Origin: a virus
Taxonomy: Duplodnaviria; Heunggongvirae; Uroviricota; Caudoviricetes
Strand: one strand, 5' to 3'
Length of the DNA: 64,000 bases
Virus record (IMG/VR): IMGVR_UViG_2795385714_000007
A program made the position numbers and the translations under genes. The notes beneath the pieces were generated by a model that ran no database searches, was not told where the DNA came from, and worked only from the letters and a program-made list of their open reading frames with translations. Positions 1-55,086 of the stretch are shown piece after piece (the first letter of the stretch is position 1; each line of letters begins with the position of its first letter).

Positions 1-27
1 CGGTTGCGGGTTGGTGGTCCAACTCAT

Positions 28-189
28 CTACGGACCGGCGAATCCTATGCAGGAGACCATTTGACCGTCTGCGTCGTTGGTGCCGGTGATCTGAATCCAG
101 GACGGGTTGAGCTTCCCGTCTGGGTCCAGGCCGCCGCGCTCGGCGGTGAAGGTGATGCCGGGTAGTTCGGGCATGGTGAATGTGGTCAT
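28..189 (-). CDS. small hypothetical protein downstream of minor tail genes
   Basis: Inner ATG (MTTFTMPELPG...) of ORF 28..348; follows tail module; no recognisable domain. Confidence 0.3.
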   Translation of the reverse strand: MTTFTMPELPGITFTAERGGLDPDGKLNPSWIQITGTNDADGQMVSCIGFAGP

Positions 190-211
190 CGCTGATGCCT
201 CTTTCGGGTGG

Positions 212-4131: not shown

Positions 4132-4743
4132 CTAGTCCTCCTTGGGACGGGGTGCGTCGGTGTAGCGGACCTCTGGTTTCGTGTGCCACTCGGCGGTCAA
4201 GACCGGCCCCTCGCCGTCGCGGCGTGCCGCGAGGCCGCGGACGTCGGGTGGGCGGAGTCGGTCGTCGCTGTAATCGCCTGGCTGTAGGTCTCGTTCGGCG
4301 TCGTCGGGGGCGTTGACGTCCACCCATGTGCACGCGTTCTCGTAGATGCCTGGGCCGTGCATGCGCCGCTTCTTGATGTGGGCGGCGGCGGTGCGGCGGA
4401 ATCCGTACAGCACTGCGGTCCAGGCGATTGCGAGGATGGTGGCGGACATGTGGTTGAGGTCGTGGACGCGCCCGTTCTGGTCGACTGGGTACTCCATGAC
4501 CTCCAGCAGCTCCAGGTATGCGCGCTGTATCTCACGCATTTCTGCGACCTTCGCCGCCTGCTCGATGTCCAGTCCGGCGTTGAGTCCGACCTGCATATCT
4601 GGTGTGAGGTCGCCATTTTCGGCGTCGTCAGCTGCCGCGCAGACGGCAAGGTCGCGGGGCGAAAGCGTCGCAGTGTCGGCCGCCGTTGGGGGCGCCTGGT
4701 CTGCCGGTACGCGGTGTGCCTTGCCTGGCCGGTCGGCGGCCAT
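4132..4743 (-). CDS. tail-associated hypothetical protein
   Basis: Start MAADRPGK at ATGA overlap with upstream gene; within tail module. Confidence 0.55.
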   Translation of the reverse strand: MAADRPGKAHRVPADQAPPTAADTATLSPRDLAVCAAADDAENGDLTPDMQVGLNAGLDIEQAAKVAEMREIQRAYLELLEVMEYPVDQNGRVHDLNHMSATILAIAWTAVLYGFRRTAAAHIKKRRMHGPGIYENACTWVDVNAPDDAERDLQPGDYSDDRLRPPDVRGLAARRDGEGPVLTAEWHTKPEVRYTDAPRPKED

Positions 4744-6578
4744 CAGAAGATGGTCCCTTCGCCGAGGAATTGGGACAGCGTTGTCCAAACGGCCTGCAAT
4801 GCACGAAGACCCCGCGCTGCGGGGTCTTCCTTGTCGCTGTCATCGCCGATAGCCAGTTGCACTGTGACTGGCTCACTTCGGGACCATGTCCGCTTTATCG
4901 CGGTGATCTGGTCGACGAAGATGATGCCGCCCTGCTCGAACCCGGCCCGGTCGCCCAGGCCGATATCGATGTCTATGGCGTGTGGTCGGCCGTTGACGAC
5001 CTTGACCGTAAAGCCCTGCCAGGCACGGGTTTTGTAGTGGCCGACGCGCATGGTGACGACACCGGACAGGGTGTAGGCGGTGCCGCCGCCCTTCTCGAAA
5101 TGCTCCTGCCAGGCCATGTCGCCGGTCCAGAGCGCGCGGCGCGGATCAGTGAAGCGCATCCACGCCAGCAAAGTGTTGTCCAGCTGGCCTTGGTAGAGGT
5201 TGTCCAGACCTTCAGTGCCCGGCTGCTGGTAGGCACCTATTGCATAGTTGATTACCTGCGCCAGCTGCGACAGCGCGTACCTAATAGCAAATGTCTGGGC
5301 TTGGTTGACAATCTGCGGGCTGCGGGAGCCCGTCATCACCGTCTTGACTGGACCCTTGTGTTGTCGGCGTTCCGATTCGATGATTCCGCTGAATTGGCCG
5401 TCGTACCAGATGGTTTTAGGCTTCTTGGGCGCGACGCCGAGCAGCTTTCGGAACACCGGATCGGTCTCGCCGTCACCGTCCTCATCGAGGTTGATGAGGG
5501 TTTCGGTGATCATGTCGTCCAACGTGGCGCCGATGAGGTTGATGACGCCGTCGGCCGCTGTTCCGGTTGGGCCGGTCACGCCCGACTTGTCTTCGATGGC
5601 GAAGACGATGCAGTTGCGGTGCGGCCTGGTGGCGTCGTTGACCGCGTCCTCAGCGACGGTGCCGCGCACCAGGTCTACGAGTTCGGTATGCGGAGAGTCC
5701 TTGTCTTCCTTGAGCCAGGTGTAGGCACGGAAGTCGCAGCCAGCGTCCTTCAACATGTCGTTCATCGCCGAGTGCCAGTCGGTCCATGCCGCGCCGATGA
5801 CGGAGAGGCGGGACTGATCGAGGATGGGGTTGACGAATGCGACTTGCAGTGGCCAGGACAGCGGGTCGAGTCCGCTGATGCCGCCGTTGAGCCAGCCGAA
5901 CGGGTTGAAGACGTTGGTCGGGATGGACAGGAGCGGGAAGAACAGGCGCGCCAGGTTGATGAACATGGACGCGGACAAGATGGTGCGTGTATTGCCTGGT
6001 AGCACCCACATTTTCGGCAGCTGAACCTCGGGAGGAAACACGGGGTTAGCGGCAAAGAGCAGGTTCTTTGCGTGCTGCCGGTTACTGATCGCCTCCAGTT
6101 CCAGCGTGTGGACGCCGGACGAGTCGCGCTTGGCGTTGATGCCGGTGACCTTCCCGCCCCACCGGGTCCGCCAGGTTGGCTGTGTGGGGATGGGGTCGAC
6201 GACGAGGTGCAGGTCCTCGTGGATCTTCGTCTGTTGGAGGATGAAGTCGGTGAGCCAGTTGTCGTACCGCAGTACGACATTCGCCTGACCGGAGTCCGAG
6301 TTCATCTCTTCGACCGACGCCAGCCGCTCGCCCGCGATCTGGGCGATGGGGTCCATGTTCTTGTCGAAGAGGCGCAGCATGGGGCGCTGGCGTGCCGCAC
6401 CTTCAATTGCGTCACGTCGGCCGCGCAGGTACTTGTAGGCCGACATGGGGTCTGTGGCCGGGTCCGGCTTGGTCGGCCGGTTCATCGTGTCTACGAGGGC
6501 GTCGTTGAGCCAGCGCGTGAACTCCAGTGGCGCTGTGGTCAATCCGTGCTGTACGCCATCTAGGAGTGCGCTAGTCAC
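4743..6578 (-). CDS. minor tail protein (611 aa, Tal-like)
   Basis: Large ORF second after tape measure; typical siphovirus synteny. Confidence 0.75.
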   Translation of the reverse strand: MTSALLDGVQHGLTTAPLEFTRWLNDALVDTMNRPTKPDPATDPMSAYKYLRGRRDAIEGAARQRPMLRLFDKNMDPIAQIAGERLASVEEMNSDSGQANVVLRYDNWLTDFILQQTKIHEDLHLVVDPIPTQPTWRTRWGGKVTGINAKRDSSGVHTLELEAISNRQHAKNLLFAANPVFPPEVQLPKMWVLPGNTRTILSASMFINLARLFFPLLSIPTNVFNPFGWLNGGISGLDPLSWPLQVAFVNPILDQSRLSVIGAAWTDWHSAMNDMLKDAGCDFRAYTWLKEDKDSPHTELVDLVRGTVAEDAVNDATRPHRNCIVFAIEDKSGVTGPTGTAADGVINLIGATLDDMITETLINLDEDGDGETDPVFRKLLGVAPKKPKTIWYDGQFSGIIESERRQHKGPVKTVMTGSRSPQIVNQAQTFAIRYALSQLAQVINYAIGAYQQPGTEGLDNLYQGQLDNTLLAWMRFTDPRRALWTGDMAWQEHFEKGGGTAYTLSGVVTMRVGHYKTRAWQGFTVKVVNGRPHAIDIDIGLGDRAGFEQGGIIFVDQITAIKRTWSRSEPVTVQLAIGDDSDKEDPAARGLRALQAVWTTLSQFLGEGTIF

Positions 6579-7592
6579 CTACCGAGACCTCTTATAGCGT
6601 TGCGGCAGTATCGCGGTGATCTTGGCATTGGGGTTGCTGTGCTTGACCCGGATCTGCGCGACGTGCCTGGATGGGACTGATGCTTGGAACCGCTTGTCGA
6701 ATCGCTTCCACACCGGCTCACCGGTGGCTGCCAGGTCGTGCAGTAGGAAGTCCAATATCTTTGAGCGCCTGGCGATCTGGTAGAAGATGTTGTCGACCGG
6801 GTCGTTGGATGCGGTGAGTGTCCGCTCCTTGGGGTCGGTGTCGACGAGGACGTATCCGTCGGATGGGGCGATCAGGGGTAGCTCGACCATGCGTCCGCTG
6901 TCGCCGTCCTCAACCCAGCACCGCCCGGGCGGGACTATGAATTGGGTGTAGGACTCCAGGTCGCCACGGTTGGGCAAGACGATGATGCCTTCGCCGTCGC
7001 CACCGAATTGTGCTGCGGTGGCGGGGTTGTTCTGCCACGTCGCCCAGATGGACGGCTTGCTGTAGTACGGCTTCTGGGCCAGCCACTTCATCGGCCACTT
7101 GGCGAAGTTGTTGCCGAAGGCTACGGGGTCGCGCTTCTGGCTGCCGCCTACGGTCTGGGCGGGCCGGACCCTGATCCATCGCCAGCCGGAGAAGCGGGTG
7201 TAGATGCCGAGCCATCCGTCACGGTTCTCGTCTTGGCCTCGGAACCAGCGGTCCTCAGCCATCCGGTACTGGAAGTTGTTGAACGGCACTCCCTTACCAC
7301 CGATAGAGACGGTGAAGTTGATTTCTCGTTTGAGGATGTTGGCGCGTTCGACGGTTGCCCCAAGCTCATAGGCGCCCTCGGTTAGCAGCAGCTCGAAAGG
7401 CCAGTGGTGCTCGCCCTCAATGTCTTCGGACAGCTGCACGCCCTGACGTCCGGCGTTGACGCCGCCGTACATGTCGGTGAAGTCGCCATCGGGCGAGATG
7501 TGGACTATCCGGGTGTCGAGCCCCTGGAGGGCCTTCGGCAGCTTGTCCCATTGGTCGTAGGCGGGGATCTCGGACTGCCGGATGAACCTCAC
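6579..7592 (-). CDS. minor tail protein (distal tail protein-like, 337 aa)
   Basis: First gene downstream of tape measure; start overlaps TMP stop. Confidence 0.7.
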   Translation of the reverse strand: MRFIRQSEIPAYDQWDKLPKALQGLDTRIVHISPDGDFTDMYGGVNAGRQGVQLSEDIEGEHHWPFELLLTEGAYELGATVERANILKREINFTVSIGGKGVPFNNFQYRMAEDRWFRGQDENRDGWLGIYTRFSGWRWIRVRPAQTVGGSQKRDPVAFGNNFAKWPMKWLAQKPYYSKPSIWATWQNNPATAAQFGGDGEGIIVLPNRGDLESYTQFIVPPGRCWVEDGDSGRMVELPLIAPSDGYVLVDTDPKERTLTASNDPVDNIFYQIARRSKILDFLLHDLAATGEPVWKRFDKRFQASVPSRHVAQIRVKHSNPNAKITAILPQRYKRSR

Positions 7593-45342: not shown

Positions 45343-46355
45343 GCCAACACCTGGGGGTAGCCGTCGAAGGTCCGGCCGTCGTGGTACAGCTCGCGGCCCG
45401 CCGCCTTCTTCCCGACGCGGTACATGGAGGTCGGGTGGTGGTGTGGGAAGTCGGCGCGTATCGCCTCACCACGGCGCGGGCCGTCAGGCCAGTCCAGATC
45501 ACCCGCGTTGTAGGTGTTTCCGTCGTCGGTCATCGCGATACCGTTCGAGAAGTCGAAACGGCCCTTCTTCAACGGCGCCATGGGTGTCCAATCGCCCCAT
45601 TGCTTGAACAGGAACGGGACACCGGCTGCCACACACTGGCGGTGCAGGCTCTCCGCCCACCACGGATGCATCGGCCGCGCGCCCGACCCGGACTCGCCGC
45701 CGACGATCACCCAGTCCAGACGCCCGATCCAGAACACCGAGTCTTTCCCGATCGGGTCGGCATGTAGGTCGATCGGCCCGAGAAGCGGCTCGGCACTGAT
45801 GAACCGCACGGCGGCCGGGGTGTCCAGCAGCGCCGGGATGCGGAGGTCGGCGCGCTTCTGATCTTCTGCGCTCACTCCCAACCAGACGTTGGGCAGGTAG
45901 TGCTGATCTAGCGAAACACCGGCCTGGGGCAACCAAACATCGCGGTCGAGCCCCGCCACGCCAACCCGCGCCCAGAAGGCATGACTACTCAGGAGCGACC
46001 GCATGCGGTCGTGGCGTTTGGTGAGCACCTGGAAGGTGTGGTGCGGGGCGAGCGCCATGACGGCGAACACCTTCGCGATGTACTCGTCGGGCACATCAGA
46101 GTGGAAAAGGTCGGCTTGTGAGCAGACGAAGATCTTCTTCCCGTCACGCTTTCGGAGTGGCCAGTCCAGACGGTTCGGGTGGAGTTGTACCGCCAGACTC
46201 GACCCGATGCCTTCACCGTCAAACTTTCGGCCTGCGATACGAATTGGTGTCGATCGTTCGATGTAGCAGTTCAGGCATCCATCACTGACACGGGTGCAAC
46301 CGGTCACTGGTGACCAAGTGGCATCAGTCCATTCGATGCCTGTTTTGTCCCCCAT
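45339..46355 (-). CDS. phage Gp37/Gp68 family protein
   Basis: Inner ATG MGDKTGIEWTDATWSPVTGCTRVSDGCLNCY, the characteristic N-terminus of this family. Confidence 0.7.
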   Translation of the reverse strand: MGDKTGIEWTDATWSPVTGCTRVSDGCLNCYIERSTPIRIAGRKFDGEGIGSSLAVQLHPNRLDWPLRKRDGKKIFVCSQADLFHSDVPDEYIAKVFAVMALAPHHTFQVLTKRHDRMRSLLSSHAFWARVGVAGLDRDVWLPQAGVSLDQHYLPNVWLGVSAEDQKRADLRIPALLDTPAAVRFISAEPLLGPIDLHADPIGKDSVFWIGRLDWVIVGGESGSGARPMHPWWAESLHRQCVAAGVPFLFKQWGDWTPMAPLKKGRFDFSNGIAMTDDGNTYNAGDLDWPDGPRRGEAIRADFPHHHPTSMYRVGKKAAGRELYHDGRTFDGYPQVLA

Positions 46356-46960
46356 CAGAACGCCGCCTCTGCTGCCGCGGTGCGCAGTTTGTTGAGCATT
46401 CGCCAGTTCCACCGGGCGTCGGAAAGAGCGTCGTGGGCGGTACCAGGTTTCGGTACAGTGCTGCCGCTGATACTGAGGCGGTCCATCTCCTGCTTGAGGT
46501 CCAGGGTGTACATGGGCATGAACCGAGGGTGGTGAATCATCCGACCCCATAGCTGGCACAGGGCCACGTGGTCGTAGGCGCCGTAGTAAGCCCAGAGCAC
46601 CGGTAGCTCGTGGTCGGCGACAGCCTCGTTTCGGTCTGCGAGGTCACCGATGATGAACTGGCGAACCTCGTTGGCAATTACCCACTTTGGCTTTACCAGC
46701 GGGGAGCGCATGTCTATTCCTCCCCACGACCAACCGGTAGCGCTGAATCCTTGACGCTTCTTCACCTCCCCGGTTGGGTGGGTGGGCAAGTGGCGTACGA
46801 CGTTGTCCATGAGCCAGTCGTCCTTGCGGATACGGTCCCAATCGGCCTCGCTGTTGACGGCGTAGTATTCGCGGCCGTCCTCGCACACGATTCCGATTGA
46901 GATCAGGTCTATGGTGCGGCCGTCTTCCAGGAACTCTGTGTCGTAGCAGTAGATGGTCAT
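46355..46960 (-). CDS. DnaQ-like (DEDDh) 3'-5' exonuclease
   Basis: Exo I motif IYCYDTEFLE; inner ATG MTIYCYD. Confidence 0.65.
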   Translation of the reverse strand: MTIYCYDTEFLEDGRTIDLISIGIVCEDGREYYAVNSEADWDRIRKDDWLMDNVVRHLPTHPTGEVKKRQGFSATGWSWGGIDMRSPLVKPKWVIANEVRQFIIGDLADRNEAVADHELPVLWAYYGAYDHVALCQLWGRMIHHPRFMPMYTLDLKQEMDRLSISGSTVPKPGTAHDALSDARWNWRMLNKLRTAAAEAAF

Positions 46961-47169
46961 TGCTCGCTCGTTTCTGCGGGGTTGTCCGCCCACGGCTGGT
47001 AGTGCTCGGGGCAGCGAAGGCCGCCCTGGCCGTCAAGGTCTATGGCGATCATCGCGGTCTGCCCACAGTGGGTTATGCCGCATACGCCTAGATCGGTGTC
47101 GTTGACGGTGAAAGTGATTCCGCCGCTGGTGGTGTAGATGCCGGTGCGGATGTGGACTGTCTGGCTCAC
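46957..47169 (-). CDS. hypothetical protein
   Basis: GTG start with AAGGGGA RBS. Confidence 0.35.
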   Translation of the reverse strand: MSQTVHIRTGIYTTSGGITFTVNDTDLGVCGITHCGQTAMIAIDLDGQGGLRCPEHYQPWADNPAETSEQ

Positions 47170-47171
47170 CG

Positions 47172-47642
47172 TTATTCCCCTTGGTCCGGTCGTACTTCGA
47201 CGGATGGGGTGACGTCGTGGCCAGTGCCCTTGTGGTGGCCGTCGGCCCATAGGTCACGGTCGTCCTCGGCGCCAAACGGGAGCTTCATATCGACGCACTC
47301 CTGGCAGGTGGCGAGGTAGTACACCGCGGGGCGGCCGGGGAATACCGTTGGAAGGTTGACCTTTACGGCAATAGCGGAGGCTAGGCGCTCCCCGTCAGCG
47401 TCCAGAGGCAGGGCCATGTACCCCGCTCCATTGTCGCGCAGGGTCGCCTCCATGACGTACTGCTCGCTGACGTAAGTGCGGTGACCTTGCAGCGAGTTGT
47501 GGCGGACGGCAAATGCTTCCGCGTGAACCTTGCCTTCATCGGTGCCTGGGAATGCCCAGGTTTGGCCGTCGCTGTCACCGGGTCCGGGTGGGCATACGGT
47601 GCACACGACGGCCCATTGCCGTTGTGTATCAATGATCTTCAT
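47172..47642 (-). CDS. hypothetical protein
   Basis: Inner ATG MKIIDTQRQW at ATGA overlap. Confidence 0.45.
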   Translation of the reverse strand: MKIIDTQRQWAVVCTVCPPGPGDSDGQTWAFPGTDEGKVHAEAFAVRHNSLQGHRTYVSEQYVMEATLRDNGAGYMALPLDADGERLASAIAVKVNLPTVFPGRPAVYYLATCQECVDMKLPFGAEDDRDLWADGHHKGTGHDVTPSVEVRPDQGE

Positions 47643-48427
47643 CGGTTTACGTCGCCGTCTACGTCGCTGTGCACGTGCTCGATGGCCTTGTTGGGGTCTG
47701 CGGTGCGCCAGTCGGGCCACGTGCGTTGCTCGTTCCTGGTCTGCTTCGCAAGGATCGCGTCGATGATCTGTTGCGGTTCCCAGCCCGCGCGCCAGGCTCC
47801 GTCGAAGGCCAGGATGATGACGTCTACCCATTCGGAGATGTCGTCAGGGGCGTCCCGTATCTCGTTCAGCTCTTTGCCGATGTGGTCCAAGACTCCGTTG
47901 GTTCGGGCACCCGGGCCGAAGGTTGCGAGGCTGAATGCACGCTGTCGCGCCAGGTGTGCTGCGTCTATTACGCGGGTGGGTGACGTGCCCGGTCGCTGCT
48001 GTTCGTCCACCGTTGTGGGCTCACCGCACCCAGCCGCCCCGAACTCGTCCCATGGGATAAACCGGTCTACTTCGAAGACCTCACCGCGCCGCACGCGCAT
48101 ACGGTCGATGGCGTTGTCGACGTTGGTTTCATCCGCGCGGTCTTTGCACCAGAACCCCCAAAGGCGTACCCGCCGCCCTGTCACGATGAGTGTCCAGCAC
48201 GGGAGCTTGCGCTGATCGCGGCGCGCGAGGAACTGATTTGAGTGCGTCGCGGCCGGTACCAACTCCACGCGGTGCCGCCATGTGCCTCGCCGGAATGCCA
48301 GCGGCCGGTCGCCCCAGAAGAAGCGCCACGGCTCCGGGGCGGACCTGACGGACCGACCCTCCTCAGTGACCTCCACGACTGGGGAAGTACACGTATTCGA
48401 TATGTGCGCTATTCCGGTAGGGATCAT
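47639..48427 (-). CDS. MazG-like dATP/dGTP pyrophosphohydrolase domain protein
   Basis: C-terminal EWVDVIILAFDGAWRAGWEPQQIIDAILAKQTRNEQRTW resembles phage MazG-like/DUF550 core. Confidence 0.55.
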   Translation of the reverse strand: MIPTGIAHISNTCTSPVVEVTEEGRSVRSAPEPWRFFWGDRPLAFRRGTWRHRVELVPAATHSNQFLARRDQRKLPCWTLIVTGRRVRLWGFWCKDRADETNVDNAIDRMRVRRGEVFEVDRFIPWDEFGAAGCGEPTTVDEQQRPGTSPTRVIDAAHLARQRAFSLATFGPGARTNGVLDHIGKELNEIRDAPDDISEWVDVIILAFDGAWRAGWEPQQIIDAILAKQTRNEQRTWPDWRTADPNKAIEHVHSDVDGDVNR

Positions 48428-50724
48428 GGCTGGACCGCCTTCGACTGGCGGATGTGTTCTGTTGCTTCGAGGTATGCCGCCCAGCTGTTCTGTGCGTATT
48501 CAGCCCATCGATAGGCAGTGGATGGCGCGATGCCGAACAGGTCTGTCATGACTGGGGGTGGCAGCGTCGAGGCCGAGGCGATCATCGCGGCGTTGCGTGC
48601 GTGGATGACGGGGAGGCCGTAGCGGGTCAGTCGCTGCTGCAGCGATCTTGGATGGATGGGCCTGCTCGGTGGTCGCCCGGGGAACAGGTATCGCGGGATC
48701 TCATCAGAAGCGTTGTGCACCATACTGCTTACGGATCGTCGTTCGATGAGCTGTTCAATGAGCCGCGCTAGAGATGGCGGCAGGAGAACGGGATTGCGGT
48801 CGAAAGTGATGAAGGATCCGTGTTCGTCTGCGTGGTAGCGATCGGTGGTGAGTTCGATCATCCGGACGGTCATCGGCGCGTAGAGCCGGATCAGTGCTCC
48901 CGCAACGCGGACTTCCAGTGGGAGTGTTTCGTCAGTGAGGCATCGGCGAAGCTGCTGGTGCAGTTCGTCTTCGGGCAGCAGTCGTGACGGTGGTCCGGTG
49001 GGCCGCGATGGGACGGTGAGGGCGGCGCCGGCCAGGCGCTGTTTGGTCAACCACTTCGCGAAGACGACCAGGTGTTTTTGCGAGGTTGGGTTGGCGGCGA
49101 GCCACTCCTCGAGGTGCGGCTGTCCGATGGCCTCGAGCGAGTATTGCTTCTGGTCGATCCAGTCGAGAAAATCGATCGCGGTAAGGATCTTGGCGCGGTC
49201 GGAGGCGGCAGCACCGTCGGTGTAGTTGCGGCGTCGCGATCGCGCCCGGGCGTCACGGACGACTCTCCATTCAGCGAACGGTCGGATGATCCGGGCTTGG
49301 TGGCTGGGCAGCGCGGCGGTCGTGCGCGTCGCCCACAGCATCAGTTGTGTCAGCTGTTCAGGGCGCGAAGGCAATACCCCTGTTGCGACGAGTAGTTGCC
49401 GAATGTAGCGGGTGGCTCCGTCCTGGTTGAGGTCATCGAGCAGTTCGTGGGTGATCGGCTGCTGATCGGCGACCAGGCCGGCCAGCAGCCGCGAGGACTT
49501 GCCGACGCGTAGCCAGGTGAGGATCGAATTGGGGTGGGCCGTGGCGAGGGCGTCGACGAGCGGTTGCAGCTGTGTAGGGACCTGTCCGGTGTCGTCGCTG
49601 AGCAAGTCAGTGACACGGCTGGCGGCCACGCATCGAGCGCATTTACCGGCGCTGTAGTGCATGCCTTCGGCCCCGCAGGTTTTGCAGGCGAAGTCGAGGT
49701 CGGCGCCCGAGCATGCAGTGCAGATCTCTTTGCCGTCGGTGTTCAAGCCGACCATGACCGCGGTGCGTTGGCACGTTGCGCAGGTTGTTGGGTTGTGCAG
49801 GCGCCGCTGGTAGCAGCTTCGACAGATGGTGCCCAGTGGCCATGTGGCGCAGGCGGTGCCGTACTCACCGCAGTAGTGGCAGTGGCGAGGACGCATCGGC
49901 CAGCAGGAGATGCAGTGAAACGGGCCGCCGCGGTATTTTCCTCCAGCTCGGGTTCGCCCGCAGGCGACACATTCGCCGATGTTTCGGTAGCAGCGTCGGC
50001 AGATGTCTGGGGTGGTGTCTGTTGCCCGGGCCTGTATTTCGTTGATCTCGCCGCATAGTCCGCATCGTCGTGCTGGTGTGCTGTAGCAGGCCCGGCAAAG
50101 CGGGCCTTCGGCGGTGAGGGCATGGGTCTGGCGGGTTTGGCCGCACTGGCTGCATTGTCGCGGCGGCGGCAGGCTGCATCCCTGACACAGCACCGTGCCG
50201 TCGGCGCGTCGAACATTGGGCGGGCGGGTCCGGCCGCAGCCGGCGCACTGTTGAAGGAACTCGGGATCGTTGTTGTAGCAGCGTCGGCAGATCGCTCCTT
50301 CTTTGCGGCGTGCCGTGAGGAGACCGGGCTCGCCGCAGCGCGCGCAGGGCCGTCGGTCGTTCTTTATCGCGCACCAGTTGCAGCAGCGGCCCTCGGGGCT
50401 GGTGCGGCGCAGCCGCACGTCGGTTCGGCCGCATCGAGCGCAGCCCAGCAGCGTCACCGAATCGGCGTATCCGTTGGCGGCCAACAGTTGCAGTAGCGCT
50501 GGTAGCGACGCGGGCCCTGCGTGAGTGGGTGCAGTGAACGCGTCAGCGTTCTCGGCGAGGTGCCGCTGCAGCTCGGCGACCCGCCCGCGGGAGTTCCACG
50601 CCTTCGCCTCGATCAGGAACTGCTGAGCGCGATCGCGCGGCATCTGCGGGTCGATGGCATCGACCACTTTTCTCACGAGGGCTTCGCGGGCTTCGTCCAG
50701 CGACAAGTTGGCTGTGGTGGTCAT
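48424..50724 (-). CDS. multi-zinc-ribbon protein fused to a divergent tyrosine recombinase-like domain (766 aa)
   Basis: 8-9 tandem C-x2-C...C-x2-C units in N-terminal half; C-terminal half has a core-binding-like segment (ATRYIRQLLVATGVLP), a catalytic-like segment (HPRSLQQRLTRYG...HARNAA...STAYRW) and a candidate Tyr; coupled (ATGA) at both ends. Confidence 0.55.
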   Translation of the reverse strand: MTTTANLSLDEAREALVRKVVDAIDPQMPRDRAQQFLIEAKAWNSRGRVAELQRHLAENADAFTAPTHAGPASLPALLQLLAANGYADSVTLLGCARCGRTDVRLRRTSPEGRCCNWCAIKNDRRPCARCGEPGLLTARRKEGAICRRCYNNDPEFLQQCAGCGRTRPPNVRRADGTVLCQGCSLPPPRQCSQCGQTRQTHALTAEGPLCRACYSTPARRCGLCGEINEIQARATDTTPDICRRCYRNIGECVACGRTRAGGKYRGGPFHCISCWPMRPRHCHYCGEYGTACATWPLGTICRSCYQRRLHNPTTCATCQRTAVMVGLNTDGKEICTACSGADLDFACKTCGAEGMHYSAGKCARCVAASRVTDLLSDDTGQVPTQLQPLVDALATAHPNSILTWLRVGKSSRLLAGLVADQQPITHELLDDLNQDGATRYIRQLLVATGVLPSRPEQLTQLMLWATRTTAALPSHQARIIRPFAEWRVVRDARARSRRRNYTDGAAASDRAKILTAIDFLDWIDQKQYSLEAIGQPHLEEWLAANPTSQKHLVVFAKWLTKQRLAGAALTVPSRPTGPPSRLLPEDELHQQLRRCLTDETLPLEVRVAGALIRLYAPMTVRMIELTTDRYHADEHGSFITFDRNPVLLPPSLARLIEQLIERRSVSSMVHNASDEIPRYLFPGRPPSRPIHPRSLQQRLTRYGLPVIHARNAAMIASASTLPPPVMTDLFGIAPSTAYRWAEYAQNSWAAYLEATEHIRQSKAVQP

Positions 50725-51056
50725 GACCGGCCTGGTCTGCGCACGATGGAACGTTTCGGCACCACGGGCGGCGCCGATGGCGCTGCGCCGGTGCCGTCGG
50801 CGGTCTTTCGGGCCGATCCGGCCACGACTTCGGGAACGATGAGATCGTTGGGTGTGCATCCCAAGATGTCGCACAAGGCGACGAGGGTGTCCATGCTCAG
50901 CCGTTGTGGTGGTTGGGTCACCAGCCGATAGACCTGCTCCCGCGACAGCGTGATGCCGCGCTCCACCAGGTGCGGAATCAGGTCCGATGTTTGAAACATG
51001 TCCTGCTCAGCCATCAGGGCCCGAAGTCGCCACTGAAACGTCATCTTCTTCGTCAT
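50721..51056 (-). CDS. Xre-like helix-turn-helix protein
   Basis: 111 aa; SREQVYRLVTQPPQRLSMDTLVALCDILGCTPNDL; ATGA overlaps on both sides. Confidence 0.6.
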   Translation of the reverse strand: MTKKMTFQWRLRALMAEQDMFQTSDLIPHLVERGITLSREQVYRLVTQPPQRLSMDTLVALCDILGCTPNDLIVPEVVAGSARKTADGTGAAPSAPPVVPKRSIVRRPGRS

Positions 51057-52171
51057 TGGCTCACTCCATCCCAGTGCTGGCCCAGGCGCCCCAGCAGGGA
51101 CGCTTTGAGCAGTTCGTTGCGGTACTCGTTGGTCACGTGGGTGTAGATCGATGTCGTCGAGGCATGGGCGTGGCCCACTTGCTCCTGGACAAACCTTGGT
51201 GGATAACCGAATTCGGTCCAATGAGTCACTGCCGAGTGACGAAGGCAATGCGGCGTGAGCACCGGATCGAGCCCAGCGTCATTGCGGGCAGCCACGAAGG
51301 CCTCGTTGATCGAGCGCGGGGAAAGCCGCCCACCACGTTCGGTCACCCACAAAGCCGGATACCGCTCGGGCAGACCGAACCGTGGCCGAATCTCGTCCAC
51401 CCACTGCGCAAGCGTGTCGACAATCCAATCCATCTCCGGGACGAGAAGCACACTGCGGCGCTTGGTCGCCGAACCCTTTGACGGCTTGCCGTGCCGCACC
51501 GTCACCACGCCGAACCCTCTGAACTCAGGGGCCAGCTTGTTCGAATGCAGATCTCCGATATCGAGTCGCGAGGCCTCGGTGCGTCGAAGTCCAAACGCGT
51601 ACAGCGTCTTTAAGACTGCCGCATCCCGAGCGGCGCCCAATGCCCCCTTCACGCCGCGCTCCCTGATCGTCGCGACCCGTCCGTCGGCGGCGTCGAACAA
51701 TGCCTGCACTTCGTCGTAGTTGAGTGGCCGACGCCCAGGATCGGACTCGTTCTCGACCCGGTGCTGAACGGAGTTTCCCTCGTGGAAAATCTGCTGAGGC
51801 GCCTGACCGAACTGCTCAAGGCATACGGTGACCCAGTCATAGCGCGGATCCAGCAGATACTCGACGAACAAGGTGATCGCGATCTCGTAGGACCGCGCTG
51901 TCGACACCGCTTTCACCGTCGTCGACCGCAAATGATCGATGAACGCCTCCCCCTCTGCCGGCGTCCACTGCCACGGATACAGGCCGGTGAACTCCTCCAA
52001 CCGGCGCATCAATGCGAGCCGCGACCCGATCGTTCCCGCCCGCAGAAACCGCGACGACTGTTGTCTTCGCCAGCCTTCGAGCATCGCCGAGAACACCGCT
52101 GCGGGAGGGTCCAGAGGAACCACGTTCTGCGCCAACATCAACCGCGCCGATCCCGGCGCCAAATCCGTCAC
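51053..52171 (-). CDS. int: tyrosine integrase/recombinase
   Basis: 372 aa; GLRRTEASRL, HCLRHSAVTHW and GHAHASTTSIYTHV (R-H-R-H-Y) motifs; GTG start. Confidence 0.85.
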   Translation of the reverse strand: MTDLAPGSARLMLAQNVVPLDPPAAVFSAMLEGWRRQQSSRFLRAGTIGSRLALMRRLEEFTGLYPWQWTPAEGEAFIDHLRSTTVKAVSTARSYEIAITLFVEYLLDPRYDWVTVCLEQFGQAPQQIFHEGNSVQHRVENESDPGRRPLNYDEVQALFDAADGRVATIRERGVKGALGAARDAAVLKTLYAFGLRRTEASRLDIGDLHSNKLAPEFRGFGVVTVRHGKPSKGSATKRRSVLLVPEMDWIVDTLAQWVDEIRPRFGLPERYPALWVTERGGRLSPRSINEAFVAARNDAGLDPVLTPHCLRHSAVTHWTEFGYPPRFVQEQVGHAHASTTSIYTHVTNEYRNELLKASLLGRLGQHWDGVSQ

Positions 52172-52178
52172 CGACCTG

Positions 52179-52193
52179 TTGTATCAGATGCAA
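52179..52193. promoter_or_regulatory. palindrome TTGTATCAGATGCAA 8 nt upstream of integrase start
   Basis: Near-perfect inverted repeat; second perfect copy 129 bp away. Confidence 0.45.
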
Positions 52194-52307
52194 CGATGAT
52201 GCGTTGGATTCAAGGCCGCAGGTCAAGGCCGTGTCAGCGCGGTCGACTAGAAGGCAGTCACGCCGGCCAACCAGCACCGTAGAGTGATCCTCAGACCGTG
52301 CCGAATG

Positions 52308-52322
52308 TTGCATCAGATGCAA
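52308..52322. promoter_or_regulatory. palindrome TTGCATCAGATGCAA (perfect copy)
   Basis: TTGCATC-A-GATGCAA. Confidence 0.45.
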
Positions 52323-52565
52323 TTCCGCGCATTTGTACTGCCCCCACAACATCAGGGAGACGAACCACCAGGGGTGGTCGTGCAGGGCGCGGTCGTCGTC
52401 GTCACGCAGGAACTTGTGTAGGTAGATGTTGAGCCACCGGTTGCGCGGGATTACGTACCAGCGCAATAGGTACGGCGCCTCGCCTTCGGCGCCGATGGGT
52501 TGATGCGGTTCCAGGCGCAACCACTTGCGCAGCAAGTGGTGGTTGTTGGGGCCGGTGGCGGTCAT
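52322..52565 (-). CDS. hypothetical protein (C-terminal end uncertain)
   Basis: MTATGPNNHHLLRKWLRLEP...LHDHPWW; ATGA-coupled to upstream gene; the frame stays open to 51837 across the palindrome and integrase start, so true stop or frameshift unclear. Confidence 0.3.
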
Positions 52566-52927
52566 CGCTTCTCCCCCGCCCCAACAACTCGCAGGTGTGT
52601 TGAAACCTGCGGTGCGACACCGTCCCAGCGGCACCATTGGCGGGCGCAAGGCTGGCATACCCACAGCGGGTTACGCCCGTCGGTCTTGACGCGGTACACG
52701 CCCTGGCAGGTGACGCACCGCACCGCGGTCCTTACATACACGGTCTGAGCTGGCGCAGGTTTCGTGCCGGGGTGGACTGTGGCCCGCATACCGGTGATCG
52801 CGTCGGCCAGTGCTTCCGTATCAACACTCTGGACGAATGTATCGATCCGGTTGGCTACTCCATGGAGGAGTCGGTTGGTGACGTCAGCTGCTGCCTTCAC
52901 CACGCGCTCAATATCGTTGGTAGTCAA
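52562..52927 (-). CDS. hypothetical protein with C-terminal zinc ribbon
   Basis: TTG start with AAGGGGAAGAAG RBS at TTGA overlap. Confidence 0.4.
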   Translation of the reverse strand: MTTNDIERVVKAAADVTNRLLHGVANRIDTFVQSVDTEALADAITGMRATVHPGTKPAPAQTVYVRTAVRCVTCQGVYRVKTDGRNPLWVCQPCARQWCRWDGVAPQVSTHLRVVGAGEKR

Positions 52928-53220
52928 TACTTCTTCCCCTTGCTTCGGCGCTGGCGCCGGTTGCCGTCCGGATGTGCCAACGGGATCTCGTCGCGCTGGT
53001 GGGCGCGTTGTGGTTGTGGGCGTGGGATAGACCGGAAGGTGACCTTTGTCTGGTCGGCCTCGGGGTCGTAGACCGCCGCCACGGGTGTGTAGAGGGCACC
53101 GAACATGTCCGGCCCCCATCGCTGGTTCACACTCATGACGTGGTCGGCGATGTCGCCCCGGTAATTGAGGGTGTTCCGCTTCGCTGTGGGGAACATGTCG
53201 GCCTGGGTGAGGGTGGCCAT
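52924..53220 (-). CDS. hypothetical protein
   Basis: 98-aa ORF. Confidence 0.45.
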   Translation of the reverse strand: MATLTQADMFPTAKRNTLNYRGDIADHVMSVNQRWGPDMFGALYTPVAAVYDPEADQTKVTFRSIPRPQPQRAHQRDEIPLAHPDGNRRQRRSKGKKY

Positions 53221-53498
53221 CAGGGCTCCTTGGCTGGGTCTAGGGCTTCAATGACCGGGTGGATGACCTGAGACGGGTCGAGGGTGATCGCGATTTCTGC
53301 TGTTATGGGCGAGAATTCAGCCGCATCCACTGTCACCCCGACCTTGACGGTGATCTGGTCCCGCGCCAGCTTCGCCGGGCGGTTGGCCCGGTATCCGGCG
53401 ATGCGTAGGCCGTTGACGACCTTGAGTCCGTCGTCACCCATGCGCCAGCCGCGGGACGCCTCCAAGATCAAGTAGCCGGTGGCGGAGTGTGTGGTCAC
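53220..53498 (-). CDS. hypothetical protein
   Basis: GTG start at GTGA overlap. Confidence 0.4.
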   Translation of the reverse strand: MTTHSATGYLILEASRGWRMGDDGLKVVNGLRIAGYRANRPAKLARDQITVKVGVTVDAAEFSPITAEIAITLDPSQVIHPVIEALDPAKEP

Positions 53499-53896
53499 CC
53501 TGCCGCCGCCTTCTCCTTGGCTGCCTGCTCCGCGGCCTTGATGTTGACCGCGTTCTCGATGATCGGGTCCATGTAGGTGTACGCGTCCCCGGGCAACACG
53601 CTGACCTTCACCGTTTCGCCGCGCACCTTCTCCACTGCATTCGCCCAGCGCCGCAACTTGGCGACGTCGGCCAGCTGCTCGGACGACGGGCAGGTGTTGT
53701 CTAGCCAGGTGTGCTGGTCGCGGAGGAACTTTCCGCACACGTCCTTCGCCCGCGGTATCTGATGCAGGAAGATGCGGTTACCGGTCATGTGCGACAACAG
53801 GTCCTGCACCTGCACCACGGTGCAGATGGCGCCTTCGGGGAGTCCGTTGGTGACGGCTAACACCGCCACCAACGGGAACTCCTTCCTCCTGCTCAC
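53495..53896 (-). CDS. hypothetical protein (paralogue of 32503..32889)
   Basis: Shared MTGN.IF.HQ.PRA core. Confidence 0.45.
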   Translation of the reverse strand: MSRRKEFPLVAVLAVTNGLPEGAICTVVQVQDLLSHMTGNRIFLHQIPRAKDVCGKFLRDQHTWLDNTCPSSEQLADVAKLRRWANAVEKVRGETVKVSVLPGDAYTYMDPIIENAVNIKAAEQAAKEKAAAG

Positions 53897-54717
53897 AGCT
53901 CGCGGATCGTGTCGGGCGCGGGACCAAACACGGACTTGATGACGGCCAGCTTCGCCACCTCAGCGTCGAACGCTGCGTCCTTGACGTCCCCGGCGCGGTC
54001 CAGCTTGTAGCCGAGGAGCAAGCCGTCCTGGCCGATGCGGAACCGCAGGCGGGCGGTCAGGTCGTACACGTCGCCGCGCTCGTAGACCGGGATGCGGAGG
54101 GTGAAGTGCTCGGGCACCTCGATATGCCCGCCCTTGCCGCCAGCGGTTGCGGTGGCCTCCTCCTTGTACTGGAACTGCACCTCGCCGGACTGGGTGCGGT
54201 GGCCGGACTGGAACTCGACCTTGCGCTTCGTCTGGAAGTTCTGCACGACCTCCATCAGGTCCGCCGCCGGTGGCGACGTGATGGCGGCCAGGCCGTCCTC
54301 GATGTGCTCGGCGAACGCAATCTGGTTGAGCAGCTTGCCGTCGGCTGCCGCCCAGTGGTTCCACTCGCGGGACAGCTGGAGCGCCACCACGATGCGGTGG
54401 TCACGCCAGCCCTTGTCGTTCAGTACCGCGGTGATCCGGCTGGGGCCGCGGTCGGCGTACGCGACGGCATCGAGTTGCAGGACGCCGTCGGTCAGCTTGT
54501 TGAAGCTGTCGACGTCCAGCACGGTGGTGGTGCCGCGGTCGCGTCGAGGGTTCGGCAGGTACCGCTCCAGCGAGTCGAAGTCGCGGCCCTCGTCGTCGCG
54601 GGTGACGAACGACAGGACGTGCTCGGTGTCGGGCACAACCTGCTCAGTGCTGTAACGCTCCGCCGCGTTGGCGAGTTCGGCGACAGCATCTGCCTCGGTA
54701 CGGATTTCGTCGGTCAT
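53893..54717 (-). CDS. conserved phage protein (possibly DUF2303/YfdQ-like)
   Basis: 274 aa; position next to the recombination genes; family call tentative. Confidence 0.4.
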   Translation of the reverse strand: MTDEIRTEADAVAELANAAERYSTEQVVPDTEHVLSFVTRDDEGRDFDSLERYLPNPRRDRGTTTVLDVDSFNKLTDGVLQLDAVAYADRGPSRITAVLNDKGWRDHRIVVALQLSREWNHWAAADGKLLNQIAFAEHIEDGLAAITSPPAADLMEVVQNFQTKRKVEFQSGHRTQSGEVQFQYKEEATATAGGKGGHIEVPEHFTLRIPVYERGDVYDLTARLRFRIGQDGLLLGYKLDRAGDVKDAAFDAEVAKLAVIKSVFGPAPDTIREL

Positions 54718-54720
54718 GGG

Positions 54721-55086
54721 TCAGGCTTCCTTTCGGATGTTCGTGGTGCTCTCGGCGACCGCTTTCATGGACTCGAACTGGAGTTGCGCCGGGTCGGTGC
54801 GGGTGACGTTGCCCTCGCGGTCGACGAACCAGAGGGATACCTGGCGGTCGGCCTGCGGCGCCTTGACAGTCACGTCGTCCTTGATGACCAACATGGAGGT
54901 GTTGGCCTGCTCAGAAACGCTGAGCTTCAACGTGAGTGACCCGGCCTTGCCGGTCGCGCGGACGGCGGCAACAACTTCCTTGAGGCCGTCGGACAGCTCG
55001 TCGTGCACGCGGCCCTTCTGTAGTTCCCGCAGGAAGTCGGCGAACGGGCGTACCCGGTCCGCTTCCTCGGGGGCTGGAGTGGTCAT
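54721..55086 (-). CDS. hypothetical protein
   Basis: Inner ATG MTTPAPEEADRVRPF. Confidence 0.45.
   Translation of the reverse strand: MTTPAPEEADRVRPFADFLRELQKGRVHDELSDGLKEVVAAVRATGKAGSLTLKLSVSEQANTSMLVIKDDVTVKAPQADRQVSLWFVDREGNVTRTDPAQLQFESMKAVAESTTNIRKEA

What the first reader, a model, noticed from the sequence alone, without database searches (positions are those of the whole stretch)
48424..52330. Integration module with two tyrosine recombinases flanking an HTH gene; the larger one carries 8-9 tandem zinc ribbons
A classical 372-aa tyrosine integrase (R/H-x-x-R/H/Y motifs intact) is ATGA-coupled to a 111-aa Xre-like HTH gene, which is ATGA-coupled to a 766-aa protein. The N-terminal half of the large protein is an array of C-x2-C...C-x2-C zinc ribbons (about 9 repeats). 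Its C-terminal half looks like a divergent tyrosine recombinase (core-binding-like segment, HPRSLQQRLTRYG, HARNAA, STAYRW). Two co-transcribed tyrosine recombinases plus a small protein resemble Tn554-type TnpA/TnpB/TnpC modules rather than a lone phage Int/Xis. The zinc-ribbon array fused to a recombinase is unusual. The module is translationally coupled into the downstream MazG-like gene, so it is native to the operon and not a recent insertion.
Basis: partly seen in the sequence, partly recalled or inferred. Interest (0 to 1): 0.7.

Follow-up and report, generated by a model that had tools for sequence, protein, structure and literature searches.

The report
Tsy-type transposon inserted in prophage
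The three genes are not the prophage's own integration module but a 3,958-bp jumping element of the recently described Tsy type (recombinase, small DNA-binding protein, zinc-finger 'target selector'), caught freshly inserted in a prophage gene; its large protein has a tryptophan where the one tested relative has its essential catalytic tyrosine.

Summary

The claim that the module is native to the operon is wrong. Mycobacterium phage prophiT37-1 is 99.9-100% identical on both sides and lacks exactly window 52334-48377 (3,958 bp). There is no target duplication and no terminal inverted repeats. The identical element is a stand-alone contig in Mycolicibacterium setense.

The same trio, with the same conserved ends, occurs across Actinobacteria. 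It recurs at the same codon of ligD, yraN and ssb genes, sometimes with 2-2.6 kb of cargo.

All three proteins are homologous to YRec, HTH and TnsF of the Tsy transposon (Faure et al. 2023). The end junction matches too: CCCAGTC(G)|AA.

What is new:
- Tyr584, essential in ZooTsy TnsF, aligns with Trp740 here. It is Trp in 100/101 homologues.
- This protein has nine ribbons, against six in ZooTsy TnsF.
- The targets differ from ZooTsy's comM.

Verdict: a new variant of a known kind, and recently mobile.

The parts
48377..52334 (-). Whole mobile element: 3,958 bp, a Tsy-type transposon. The G at 48376 is ambiguous between element and flank.
   Evidence: Absent from the otherwise 99.9-100% identical prophiT37-1. 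Window 52334..48376 equals M. setense contig LZSL01000052.1 with 0 mismatches. Ends defined by conservation across loci.
52172..52334 (-). Left end (end1): 163 nt of non-coding DNA. The terminus reads AAATGCGCGG and is followed by a GGAAT box.
   Evidence: Conservation in 27 loci begins exactly at AAA(Y)(R)GG..GGAATTGCAT. The ZooTsy end1 starts AAGTTCTGAT.
52308..52322 (.). Palindrome 1, TTGCATCTGATGCAA, 12 nt from the left terminus. Candidate operator or recombination site.
   Evidence: The window holds only two sites, against 0.16 expected by chance. Conserved in all aligned loci.
52179..52193 (.). Palindrome 2, TTGCATCTGATACAA, just upstream of the Int GTG start codon.
51053..52171 (-). Tyrosine recombinase (Int; YRec homologue), 372 aa, with a complete catalytic set.
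   Evidence: PF00589 E=2e-22. R197, K229/K237, H308, R311, H334 and Y343 are invariant in 15 intact loci. 32% identity over 343 aa to ZooTsy YRec, E=1e-42; both proteins are 372 aa.
50721..51056 (-). Small Cro/C1-type HTH protein, 111 aa (Tsy HTH homologue).
   Evidence: HTH_26 E=5e-15. 32% identity over 75 aa to ZooTsy HTH, E=5e-10.
48424..50724 (-). TnsF-like protein, 766 aa: an N-terminal helical domain, nine zinc ribbons, then a recombinase-fold CB+CAT.
   Evidence: BLASTP against ZooTsy TnsF: E=4e-22 over 595 columns. hhalign of family profile against TnsF: probability 99.7%. 8,943 cluster representatives at E<=1e-3.
49630..50442 (-). Array of nine CxxC…CxxC zinc ribbons (residues 95-365).
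48427..49629 (-). Tyrosine-recombinase-fold half (residues 366-766).
48505..48507 (-). Codon TGG = Trp740, at the position of the catalytic Tyr584 of ZooTsy TnsF.
   Evidence: FGIAPSTAYRW aligns with FGITDTTAIKY. Trp in 100/101 homologues. No Tyr in any of the 266 fetched sequences whose C-terminus could be read.
48377..48423 (-). Right end (end2), 47 nt. The box GGAATAGCGCAcataTCGAATAC starts at 48415; the terminus reads TTCCCCAGTC.
   Evidence: The motif lies at a fixed 39 nt from the end in about 35 loci. The ZooTsy end2 reads …GAATCCCAGTC.
52335..52565 (-). 5' part (77 codons) of the interrupted prophage gene, the homologue of prophiT37-1 gene 24 (cupin / 'cysteine dioxygenase' N-terminus).
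   Evidence: phrog_4786 profile positions 16-86 match here and positions 110-147 match downstream of the element. T37 gene 24 is intact.
47639..48376 (-). 3' part of the interrupted prophage gene (rest of the cupin plus the dATP/dGTP pyrophosphohydrolase domain). It is read in frame from an ATG at 48427 inside end2.

Best explanation
Window 52334..48377 (minus strand) is an actinobacterial member of the Tsy class of tyrosine-recombinase transposons. It has inserted precisely, without target duplication, into a prophage gene.

By analogy with the reconstituted Zoogloea element (ZooTsy), the proposed mechanism is as follows.
- Int, the YRec homologue with a complete R-K-H-R-H-Y set, excises the element as a circle. 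End2 (…CCCCAGTC) is joined to end1 (AAATGC…).
- Int then recombines that junction with a target site.
- The 766-aa TnsF-like protein uses its nine zinc ribbons and its recombinase-fold DNA-binding half to choose and hold the target, and probably the element's ends.
- The small HTH protein is a required accessory. It most likely binds the two TTGCAT-N3-ATGCAA palindromes in end1, for autoregulation, assembly or directionality.

In this clade the TnsF-like protein has Trp in place of the catalytic Tyr. I therefore infer that it is a non-catalytic partner and that Int alone performs the DNA chemistry.

Shown here: the insertion, the ends, the homology to all three Tsy proteins, the folds, recurrent site-specific targets, cargo, and recent mobility.
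Inferred: the circular intermediate, the roles of the HTH and TnsF-like proteins, and the catalytic inactivity.
For: Insertion:
- prophiT37-1 matches the left flank up to 52335 (100%) and the right flank from 48381 (99.9%). Its gene 24 is intact.
- One PHROG family (phrog_4786) is split across the element.
- The joined flanks restore the frame DHPWWFVSLMLWGQY|VEVTEEGRSV.

Mobility:
- An identical 3,959-nt contig exists in M. setense, with 0 mismatches.
- The trio is intact and syntenic in at least 16 fetched loci from Mycobacterium, Mycolicibacterium, Nocardia, Amycolatopsis, Kribbella and Streptomyces. Decayed copies are also present.
- The large protein matches 257 plasmid records.

Ends and insertion sites:
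- Both ends are conserved across loci.
- A second true empty site exists: ligD of pREL1, against Rhodococcus plasmids pDJL1 and pYLC1. Those two carry the same trio (96.6% identical) with different cargo.
- Different elements sit at the same codon of ligD (5 loci) and yraN (2 loci). Another sits in ssb. Joined flanks restore the reading frame.

Tsy membership:
- Gene order matches, and there are no inverted repeats. In Tsy, cargo lies downstream of tnsF, end1 is long (135 bp) and end2 short (20 bp), and the circle junction reads …GAATCCCAGTCG|AAGTTC (PMC10293859).
- Int vs YRec E=1e-42. HTH vs HTH E=5e-10. Large protein vs TnsF E=4e-22, and hhalign probability 99.7%.

Loss of the nucleophile: Y584 aligns with W740, which is Trp in 100/101 homologues. 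The Int catalytic residues are invariant in 15 intact loci.
Against: - No circular junction, excision product or activity was observed; everything is comparative.
- In ZooTsy the catalytic Tyr of both YRec and TnsF is reported as essential (PMC10293859). A clade that works without the TnsF Tyr would need a different strand-exchange scheme, which I cannot show.
- Two arginines at recombinase box I and box II positions are retained (R621 in 88/101, R710 in 97/101), and Y751 is Tyr in 95/101. Residual or relocated catalysis is therefore not excluded.
- The exact right boundary is ambiguous by 1 nt.
- The target consensus around the insertion point is weak.
- The window's cupin gene is not one of the recurrent targets.
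Confidence: 0.85

Rival explanations
1. The trio is the prophage's own integration/excision module (Int, Xis or regulator, plus an accessory protein), co-transcribed with neighbouring early genes.
For: It lies in a prophage, reads in the same direction as its neighbours, and has ATGA overlaps including one into the downstream ORF.
Against: prophiT37-1 is 99.9-100% identical on both sides, lacks the trio and has an intact gene at the site. That prophage has its own repressor and excise genes at its attachment end. The large protein has no match in 50,697 phage records. The same trio occurs in chromosomes and 257 plasmids with conserved ends.
Confidence: 0.02
2. It is a Tn554-family transposon: TnpA and TnpB are two active tyrosine recombinases, and TnpC is a small accessory protein.
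For: It has no inverted repeats and no target duplication, its ends are asymmetric, it has three co-oriented genes, and it targets specific sites. Tn554-like pairs with one 'abnormally long' recombinase are reported in Actinobacteria (PMC3414803).
Against: The reported actinobacterial Tn554-like pair tested here (Arthrobacter FB24 plasmid 1: 400 aa + 803 aa) has PF00589 in both proteins and no HTH gene between them. Its long protein has no similarity to the 766-aa protein (E=2.9), and its short protein is only marginally similar to Int (E=4e-5 over 89 aa). The gene order differs, with the small gene in the middle. All three proteins instead match Tsy proteins. Tn554 proteins themselves were not available for direct comparison.
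Confidence: 0.04
3. The large protein is a second active recombinase, as in ZooTsy, but uses a relocated nucleophile such as Tyr751 or Tyr743 in the same C-terminal helix.
For: In ZooTsy both catalytic tyrosines are needed. Y751 is Tyr in 95/101 homologues and is conserved in distant plasmid relatives. The two arginines R621 and R710 are largely retained, and H733 is His in 68/101.
Against: Y751 is Phe in otherwise intact elements (L019/P0033, P0109, P0112). It lies 11 residues, about three helical turns, beyond the nucleophile position. Y743 is Tyr in only 55/101. The beta-hairpin Lys position and the His of HxxR are not conserved. The nucleophile position itself holds a strictly conserved Trp, which points to a structural or DNA-contact role.
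Confidence: 0.15
4. The large protein is mainly a repressor or regulator of the element built on a recombinase fold (like the SPbeta-type MrpR and SroF proteins) and is not part of the recombination machine.
Against: Its homologue TnsF is required for ZooTsy transposition and binds the target. It always sits in the Int-HTH-large operon next to defined transposon ends. A dedicated HTH protein and two palindromic operator-like sites already account for regulation.
Confidence: 0.07

Closest known systems
Tsy transposon (ZooTsy, Zoogloea sp. LCSB751; Faure et al. 2023, Mol Cell 83:2122, PMC10293859)
   Same: - Gene order is YRec-HTH-TnsF-like, with overlapping genes, and all three proteins are homologous (E=1e-42, 5e-10, 4e-22).
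- The TnsF-like protein has zinc fingers followed by a CB+CAT recombinase fold.
- There are no inverted repeats.
- End1 is long and end2 short.
- The termini are conserved: …CCCAGTC(G)|AA….
- Cargo lies between tnsF and end2.
- Insertion is site-specific, into conserved genes.
   Different: - The host phylum is Actinobacteria.
- There are nine zinc ribbons plus a 94-aa N-terminal helical domain, against six ribbons in ZooTsy TnsF.
- There is no GIY-YIG nuclease.
- The targets are ligD, yraN, ssb and others, not comM; here the target is a prophage cupin gene.
- Tyr584, essential in ZooTsy TnsF, is replaced by an invariant Trp.
TnsF of Tn6022-type Tn7-like transposons
   Same: It is a zinc-finger plus recombinase-fold protein that has lost catalytic capacity and acts as a DNA-binding target selector.
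   Different: Tn6022 TnsF has lost most of the CAT domain and works with TniQ and TnsABC. Here the full CB+CAT fold is kept (264 residues superpose on XerH) and the partner is a tyrosine recombinase. No Tn7 genes are present.
Tn554 and the actinobacterial Tn554-like pairs (Van Houdt et al. 2012, PMC3414803)
   Same: It is a tyrosine-recombinase transposon with three genes, no inverted repeats, no target duplication and a preferred attachment site.
   Different: Both Tn554-type recombinases have detectable PF00589 domains. The small gene (tnpC) comes last and is not an HTH_26 protein. The long protein of the tested pair shows no sequence similarity to the large protein here.
Recombinase-fold DNA-binding proteins without catalysis (SPbeta/phi3T MrpR and SroF)
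   Different: They are phage repressors. They have no zinc-ribbon array and are not part of a transposition operon.

Membership tests
Tsy transposons (YRec-HTH-TnsF) | Operon order: tyrosine recombinase, small HTH protein, TnsF-like protein | tested here: met
   Window. The same order is found in at least 16 actinobacterial loci and in the ZooTsy-identical locus L075.
Tsy transposons (YRec-HTH-TnsF) | Sequence homology of each of the three proteins to the ZooTsy proteins | tested here: met
   Int vs YRec: 32% identity, E=1e-42. HTH vs HTH: 32% identity, E=5e-10. Large protein vs TnsF: E=4e-22, with hhalign probability 99.7%.
Tsy transposons (YRec-HTH-TnsF) | TnsF-like architecture: N-terminal zinc fingers followed by a XerH-like CB and CAT | tested here: met
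Tsy transposons (YRec-HTH-TnsF) | No terminal inverted repeats; long end1 and short end2; termini …CCCAGTC and AA(G/A)T… | tested here: met
   compared with Data S3 of PMC10293859.
Tsy transposons (YRec-HTH-TnsF) | Active tyrosine nucleophile in TnsF (Y584, reported essential) | tested here: not met
   The aligned residue is W740, Trp in 100/101 homologues.
Tsy transposons (YRec-HTH-TnsF) | Insertion into comM at the Walker B region | tested here: not met
   The targets here are a prophage cupin gene, ligD, yraN, ssb and others.
Tsy transposons (YRec-HTH-TnsF) | YRec-dependent circular intermediate | not testable with these tools
   The only indirect hint is that the M. setense contig equals the element plus one G, which reproduces the CCCAGTCG|AA junction of the ZooTsy circle.
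Tn554 family | Two tyrosine recombinases with recognisable catalytic domains (TnpA, TnpB) | tested here: not met
   The large protein has no PF00589 hit and no nucleophile. The Tn554-like pair in Arthrobacter FB24 has PF00589 in both proteins.
Tn554 family | Homology to Tn554-like TnpA/TnpB | tested here: not met
   Large protein vs the 803-aa FB24 protein: E=2.9. Int vs the 400-aa partner: E=4e-5, over the catalytic motifs only. Tn554 itself was not available.
Tn554 family | No inverted repeats and no target duplication | tested here: met
Phage Int/Xis integration module | Belongs to the phage genome and flanks or uses its attachment site | tested here: not met
   It is absent from the isogenic prophiT37-1, whose own repressor and excise genes lie elsewhere.
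RIT (recombinase-in-trio) elements | Three adjacent tyrosine recombinases (RitA/B/C) with catalytic motifs | tested here: not met
   The middle gene is an HTH_26 protein. Only one protein carries PF00589.

The most novel reading that the evidence does not exclude
A very large actinobacterial clade of Tsy-type transposons moves with only one catalytic recombinase. The evidence for its size and activity is 1,820 cluster representatives at E<=1e-30, all inspected members with Trp at the nucleophile position, and identical copies in two species.

On this reading, its TnsF-like partner is a full-length but catalytically dead recombinase paralogue that serves as the zinc-ribbon target selector. It would be a natural intermediate between the active TnsF of ZooTsy and the truncated TnsF co-opted by Tn7-like elements.

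Strand exchange would then need either Int acting at all four half-sites, or a single pair of exchanges with the Holliday junction resolved by the host. The recurrent choice of DNA-repair genes (ligD, yraN, ssb) as targets may be connected with that.
Probability: 0.5. Interest if true: 0.7.

Novelty: new variant of a known kind. Interest (0 to 1): 0.6.

Why it matters
1. It corrects the reading of this locus. A prophage early gene is interrupted by a transposon that is still active. This is relevant because these M. abscessus-type prophages are studied for phage therapy and lysogeny.

2. It extends Tsy elements to Actinobacteria on a large scale. Tsy is known from one reconstituted proteobacterial example; here there are thousands of protein clusters, in chromosomes, 257 plasmids and a prophage. 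The work supplies defined ends, cargo positions and several recurrent attachment sites (ligD, yraN, ssb).

3. It shows a clade in which the residue reported as essential for TnsF catalysis is systematically Trp. This makes a concrete question testable: can a tyrosine-recombinase transposon run on one active and one dead recombinase-fold subunit? It also bears on how Tn7-like elements could have recruited TnsF.

4. Public annotation of these proteins is inconsistent and could be corrected. Current names include 'XRE family transcriptional regulator', 'recombinase XerD' and 'hypothetical protein'.

Tried and rejected
- **Sequence libraries.** Pfam, PHROGs, NCBIfam and PDB-sequence searches of the large protein gave nothing. 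Only structure and the ZooTsy sequence revealed its relatives.
- **Profile comparison within the trio.** hhalign of the large-protein family against the trio's own Int family gave no signal, so catalytic residues could not be mapped that way.
- **Repeat search.** No terminal inverted or direct repeats were found at the ends.
- **An error I made and corrected.** I first placed the right end of the Rhodococcus element L069 just after the large gene, from a reading-frame argument. Comparison with the empty ligD of pREL1 showed the real end 2 kb further on, beyond cargo genes.
- **A crossover core.** I considered a 6-7 bp crossover 'core' or coupling sequence (CAGTAC versus CAGTCG). No register fits both junctions, and a precise insertion with 0-1 nt ambiguity fits all reconstructed sites.
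- **Van Houdt's 'long TBSSR' class.** I suspected it was this family. It is not. SCP1 was not in the plasmid collection.
- **Database searches that failed.** The first genome-contig scan with the single protein, and one with too diverse an alignment, both failed. A search of the protein collection with the ZooTsy YRec fragment found nothing. The ZooTsy locus was recovered instead by an exact end1 24-mer in metagenome contigs.
- **Promoter scan.** It found no sigma-70-like site in end1.
- **Fold search of the zinc-ribbon half.** It gave only weak LIM-domain matches.

Full report
**1. What is in the sequence.**
On the minus strand, three ORFs are chained by ATGA stop/start overlaps. The first, 52171..51053, encodes a 372-aa protein with a Phage_integrase domain (PF00589, E=2e-22). 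The second, 51056..50721, encodes a 111-aa Cro/C1-type HTH protein (HTH_26, E=5e-15). The third, 50724..48424, encodes a 766-aa protein with no hit in Pfam, PHROGs, NCBIfam or PDB sequences.

The large protein contains 18 CxxC motifs paired into nine CxxC-N15-21-CxxC units between residues 95 and 365. These cysteines are invariant or nearly invariant in alignments of 30 to 101 homologues.

**2. The trio is an insertion, not part of the operon.**
PHROG family phrog_4786 matches the ORF upstream of the trio with profile positions 16-86. It matches the ORF downstream with positions 110-147. A gene has been split.

Mycobacterium phage prophiT37-1 (OQ417969.1, from M. abscessus T37) matches the upstream flank at 100% identity up to window 52335. 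It matches the downstream flank at 99.9% from 48381 onward. In that record the two flanks are contiguous inside an intact gene 24. The junctions read as follows:
- empty site: GGGGGCAGTAC|GTGGAGG
- left junction: …CAGTAC|AAATGCGCGG…
- right junction: …TTCCCCAGTC|GTGGAGG

The inserted DNA is window 52334..48377, 3,958 bp. There is 1 nt of ambiguity, no target duplication and no terminal inverted repeats. prophiT37-1 has its own repressor and excise genes at its attachment end. Neither the element's DNA nor the large protein matches any of 50,697 phage records.

The 'ATGA coupling into the MazG-like gene' is an ORF that starts at an ATG inside the element's right end. It happens to be in frame with the 3' part of the interrupted gene.

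**3. It is a mobile element with many relatives.**
A 3,959-nt contig of Mycolicibacterium setense (LZSL01000052.1) is identical, with 0 mismatches, to window 52334..48376. It begins and ends at the element's boundaries.

The large protein has 204 scored homologues, all those named being from Actinobacteria. Many lie on contigs of about 3.9-4.0 kb. An exhaustive profile search finds 8,943 cluster representatives at E<=1e-3 and 1,820 at E<=1e-30. It also matches 257 plasmid records, from Streptomyces, Rhodococcus, Arthrobacter, Mycobacterium and others.

In 63 genomic loci fetched with a family alignment, the Int-HTH-large order is intact in at least 16. Many others are decayed.

**4. The ends.**
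Alignment of the upstream regions shows that conservation starts exactly at AAA(Y)(R)GG..GGAATTGCAT-N3-ATGCAACAT. A second copy of the TTGCAT-N3-AT(G/A)CAA palindrome lies about 20 nt before the Int start codon. In the window these are the only two such sites, against 0.16 expected by chance.

The right end carries GGAATAGCGCA-N4-TCGAATAC. The terminus, (T/C)TC(C/A)CCAGTN, lies at a fixed 39 nt from the start of that box.

**5. Targets and cargo.**
A second true empty site was found. The intact ligD of plasmid pREL1 reads GAATACCGCGAG|TACACCGGTGG. Rhodococcus plasmids pDJL1 and pYLC1 carry the element at exactly this point. The trio parts of those two copies are 96.6% identical. They carry different cargo between the large gene and the right end: a PNPOx-family gene plus a FolD-like gene in one, and MerR, DUF4188 and transglutaminase-like genes in the other.

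Across loci with both ends, element sizes run from 3.9 kb to 6.6 kb. Joining the flanks restores clean reading frames.

Of 27 left junctions, five lie at the same codon of LigD-type ligase genes (…V(Y/F)(R/S)E|), in Mycolicibacterium, Nocardia, Mycobacterium and Rhodococcus. Two lie at the same codon of yraN-family genes. One lies in ssb, and two in another shared gene. The elements are therefore site-specific for conserved genes. The window's cupin gene is a different site.

**6. Fold of the large protein.**

The model of residues 1-372 (pLDDT 93.8) is a four-helix domain followed by beta-hairpin modules. These resemble tandem LIM zinc fingers only weakly.

**7. What it is related to.**
The actinobacterial 'Tn554-like' transposons of Van Houdt et al. 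2012 (PMC3414803) looked like candidates. I examined one of their listed examples, Arthrobacter FB24 plasmid 1. It has a 400-aa and an 803-aa protein, both with PF00589 domains, and no HTH gene between them. The long one shows no similarity to the large protein here (BLASTP E=2.9).

The true match is the Tsy transposon of Faure et al. 2023 (PMC10293859). Its properties, as reported there, are:
- an operon of YRec, a small HTH protein and a TnsF-like protein, the last having several zinc fingers followed by XerH-like CB and CAT domains;
- no inverted repeats;
- a YRec-dependent circular intermediate;
- cargo downstream of tnsF;
- 135 bp of end1 and only 20 bp of end2 required;
- insertion into comM.

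I recovered a ZooTsy-identical locus (L075) from a metagenome contig, using an exact 24-mer of end1. The comparisons are:
- Int vs YRec: 32% identity over 343 aa, E=1e-42. Both proteins are 372 aa.
- HTH vs HTH: 32% identity over 75 aa, E=5e-10.
- Large protein vs TnsF: 24% identity over 595 columns, E=4e-22. The family profile against TnsF gives hhalign probability 99.7%.

The published circle junction, …GAGAATCCCAGTCG|AAGTTCTGAT…, corresponds to this element's …ACTTCCCCAGTC(G)|AAATGCGCGG….

**8. What differs from ZooTsy.**
ZooTsy TnsF has six ribbons and 607 aa. This protein has nine ribbons, plus a 94-aa N-terminal helical domain. There is no GIY-YIG gene, and the targets differ.

The most important difference concerns the nucleophile. 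[quoted passage not shown] In the alignments Y584 (FGITDTTAIKY) pairs with W740 (FGIAPSTAYRW). That position is Trp in 100 of 101 homologues. I saw no Tyr there in any of the 266 fetched sequences whose C-terminus could be read, including the 150 best cluster representatives.

Y743 is Tyr in 55/101. Y751 is Tyr in 95/101 but is Phe in otherwise intact elements. The beta-hairpin Lys and the His of HxxR are not conserved. Two arginines are largely kept: R621 in 88/101 and R710 in 97/101. By contrast, the Int catalytic residues R197, K229/K237, H308, R311, H334 and Y343 are invariant in 15 intact loci.

**9. Most likely mechanism.**
Int excises the element as a circle and integrates it. The TnsF-like protein selects and holds the target, and probably the ends, through its ribbons and recombinase-fold half without cutting DNA. 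The HTH protein is a required accessory and probably binds the two palindromes in end1.

Shown here: the insertion, the ends, the homology, the folds, the recurrent targets, the cargo and the recent mobility. Inferred: the circle, the protein roles and the catalytic inactivity. Rivals are scored in the Rival explanations section.

**10. Verdict.**
It is wrong on nativeness and on the Tn554 assignment.

The element is a new variant of a known kind (Tsy). It is abundant in Actinobacteria and recently active, and it has a systematic Tyr-to-Trp change at the TnsF nucleophile position. In the searchable literature I found no description of these actinobacterial elements or of this substitution.

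Noticed in passing
window 47639-48427 (minus strand): The ORF that looked translationally coupled to the large gene starts at an ATG inside the transposon's right end. It is in frame with the 3' part of the interrupted prophage gene. The dATP/dGTP pyrophosphohydrolase half could therefore still be expressed as a fusion with 17 element-encoded residues.
   Followed up: partly
L008, L011, L015, L069, L071 (ligD); L003, L035 (yraN); L018 (ssb); L031, L066: Different elements of this family sit at the same codon of conserved DNA-repair or replication genes in different genera. ZooTsy targets comM and, from memory, Tn554 targets radC, so DNA-repair genes recur as attachment sites.
   Followed up: partly
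L069 2368-8283; L071 3001-9403; L008, L006, L032, L043: Elements of 5.9-6.6 kb carry 2-2.6 kb of passenger genes between the large gene and the right end. Two Rhodococcus plasmids have the same trio (96.6% identical) at the same ligD site with different cargo.
   Followed up: partly
L071 1-2547 and 3001-9403; L013 159-3924; L004; L022 597-5064: Elements cluster or nest. Plasmid pYLC1 has two trios head-to-head. L013 and L004 hold a second, distant trio (Int 47%, large protein about 30% identity) next to a truncated one. In L022 the Int gene is split by a 4.4-kb insert.
   Followed up: no
L070 (pREL1) 6567-6609; L044 8058, 9896, 10343: Solitary right-end-like motifs (GGAATA..GCA-N4-TCGAATAC…CCAGTCG) occur without a trio. 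One lies about 380 nt downstream of the intact ligD of pREL1. They may be remnants or pseudo-ends.
   Followed up: no
L002 3959 (M. setense contig end) and window 48376: The stand-alone contig ends with one extra G after …CCCCAGTC. This reproduces the CCCAGTCG|AA junction reported for the ZooTsy circular intermediate. The right junctions of L069 and L071 also differ by one nucleotide (GGTT|TAC versus GGTCT|TAC). A 1-nt coupling base may be carried along.
   Followed up: partly
window 1-6000 versus 46300-54800: The tail-gene region is only 93.6% identical to prophiT37-1, while the early region around the insertion is 99.9-100% identical. The prophage in the window is a mosaic relative of prophiT37-1 and prophiGD43A-5.
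   Followed up: no
protein annotations of homologues: Public annotation names the TnsF-like proteins inconsistently: 'XRE family transcriptional regulator', 'recombinase XerD', 'site-specific integrase', 'Fis family transcriptional regulator' or 'hypothetical protein'. Distant relatives have as few as three ribbons (Arthrobacter, 505 aa).
   Followed up: partly
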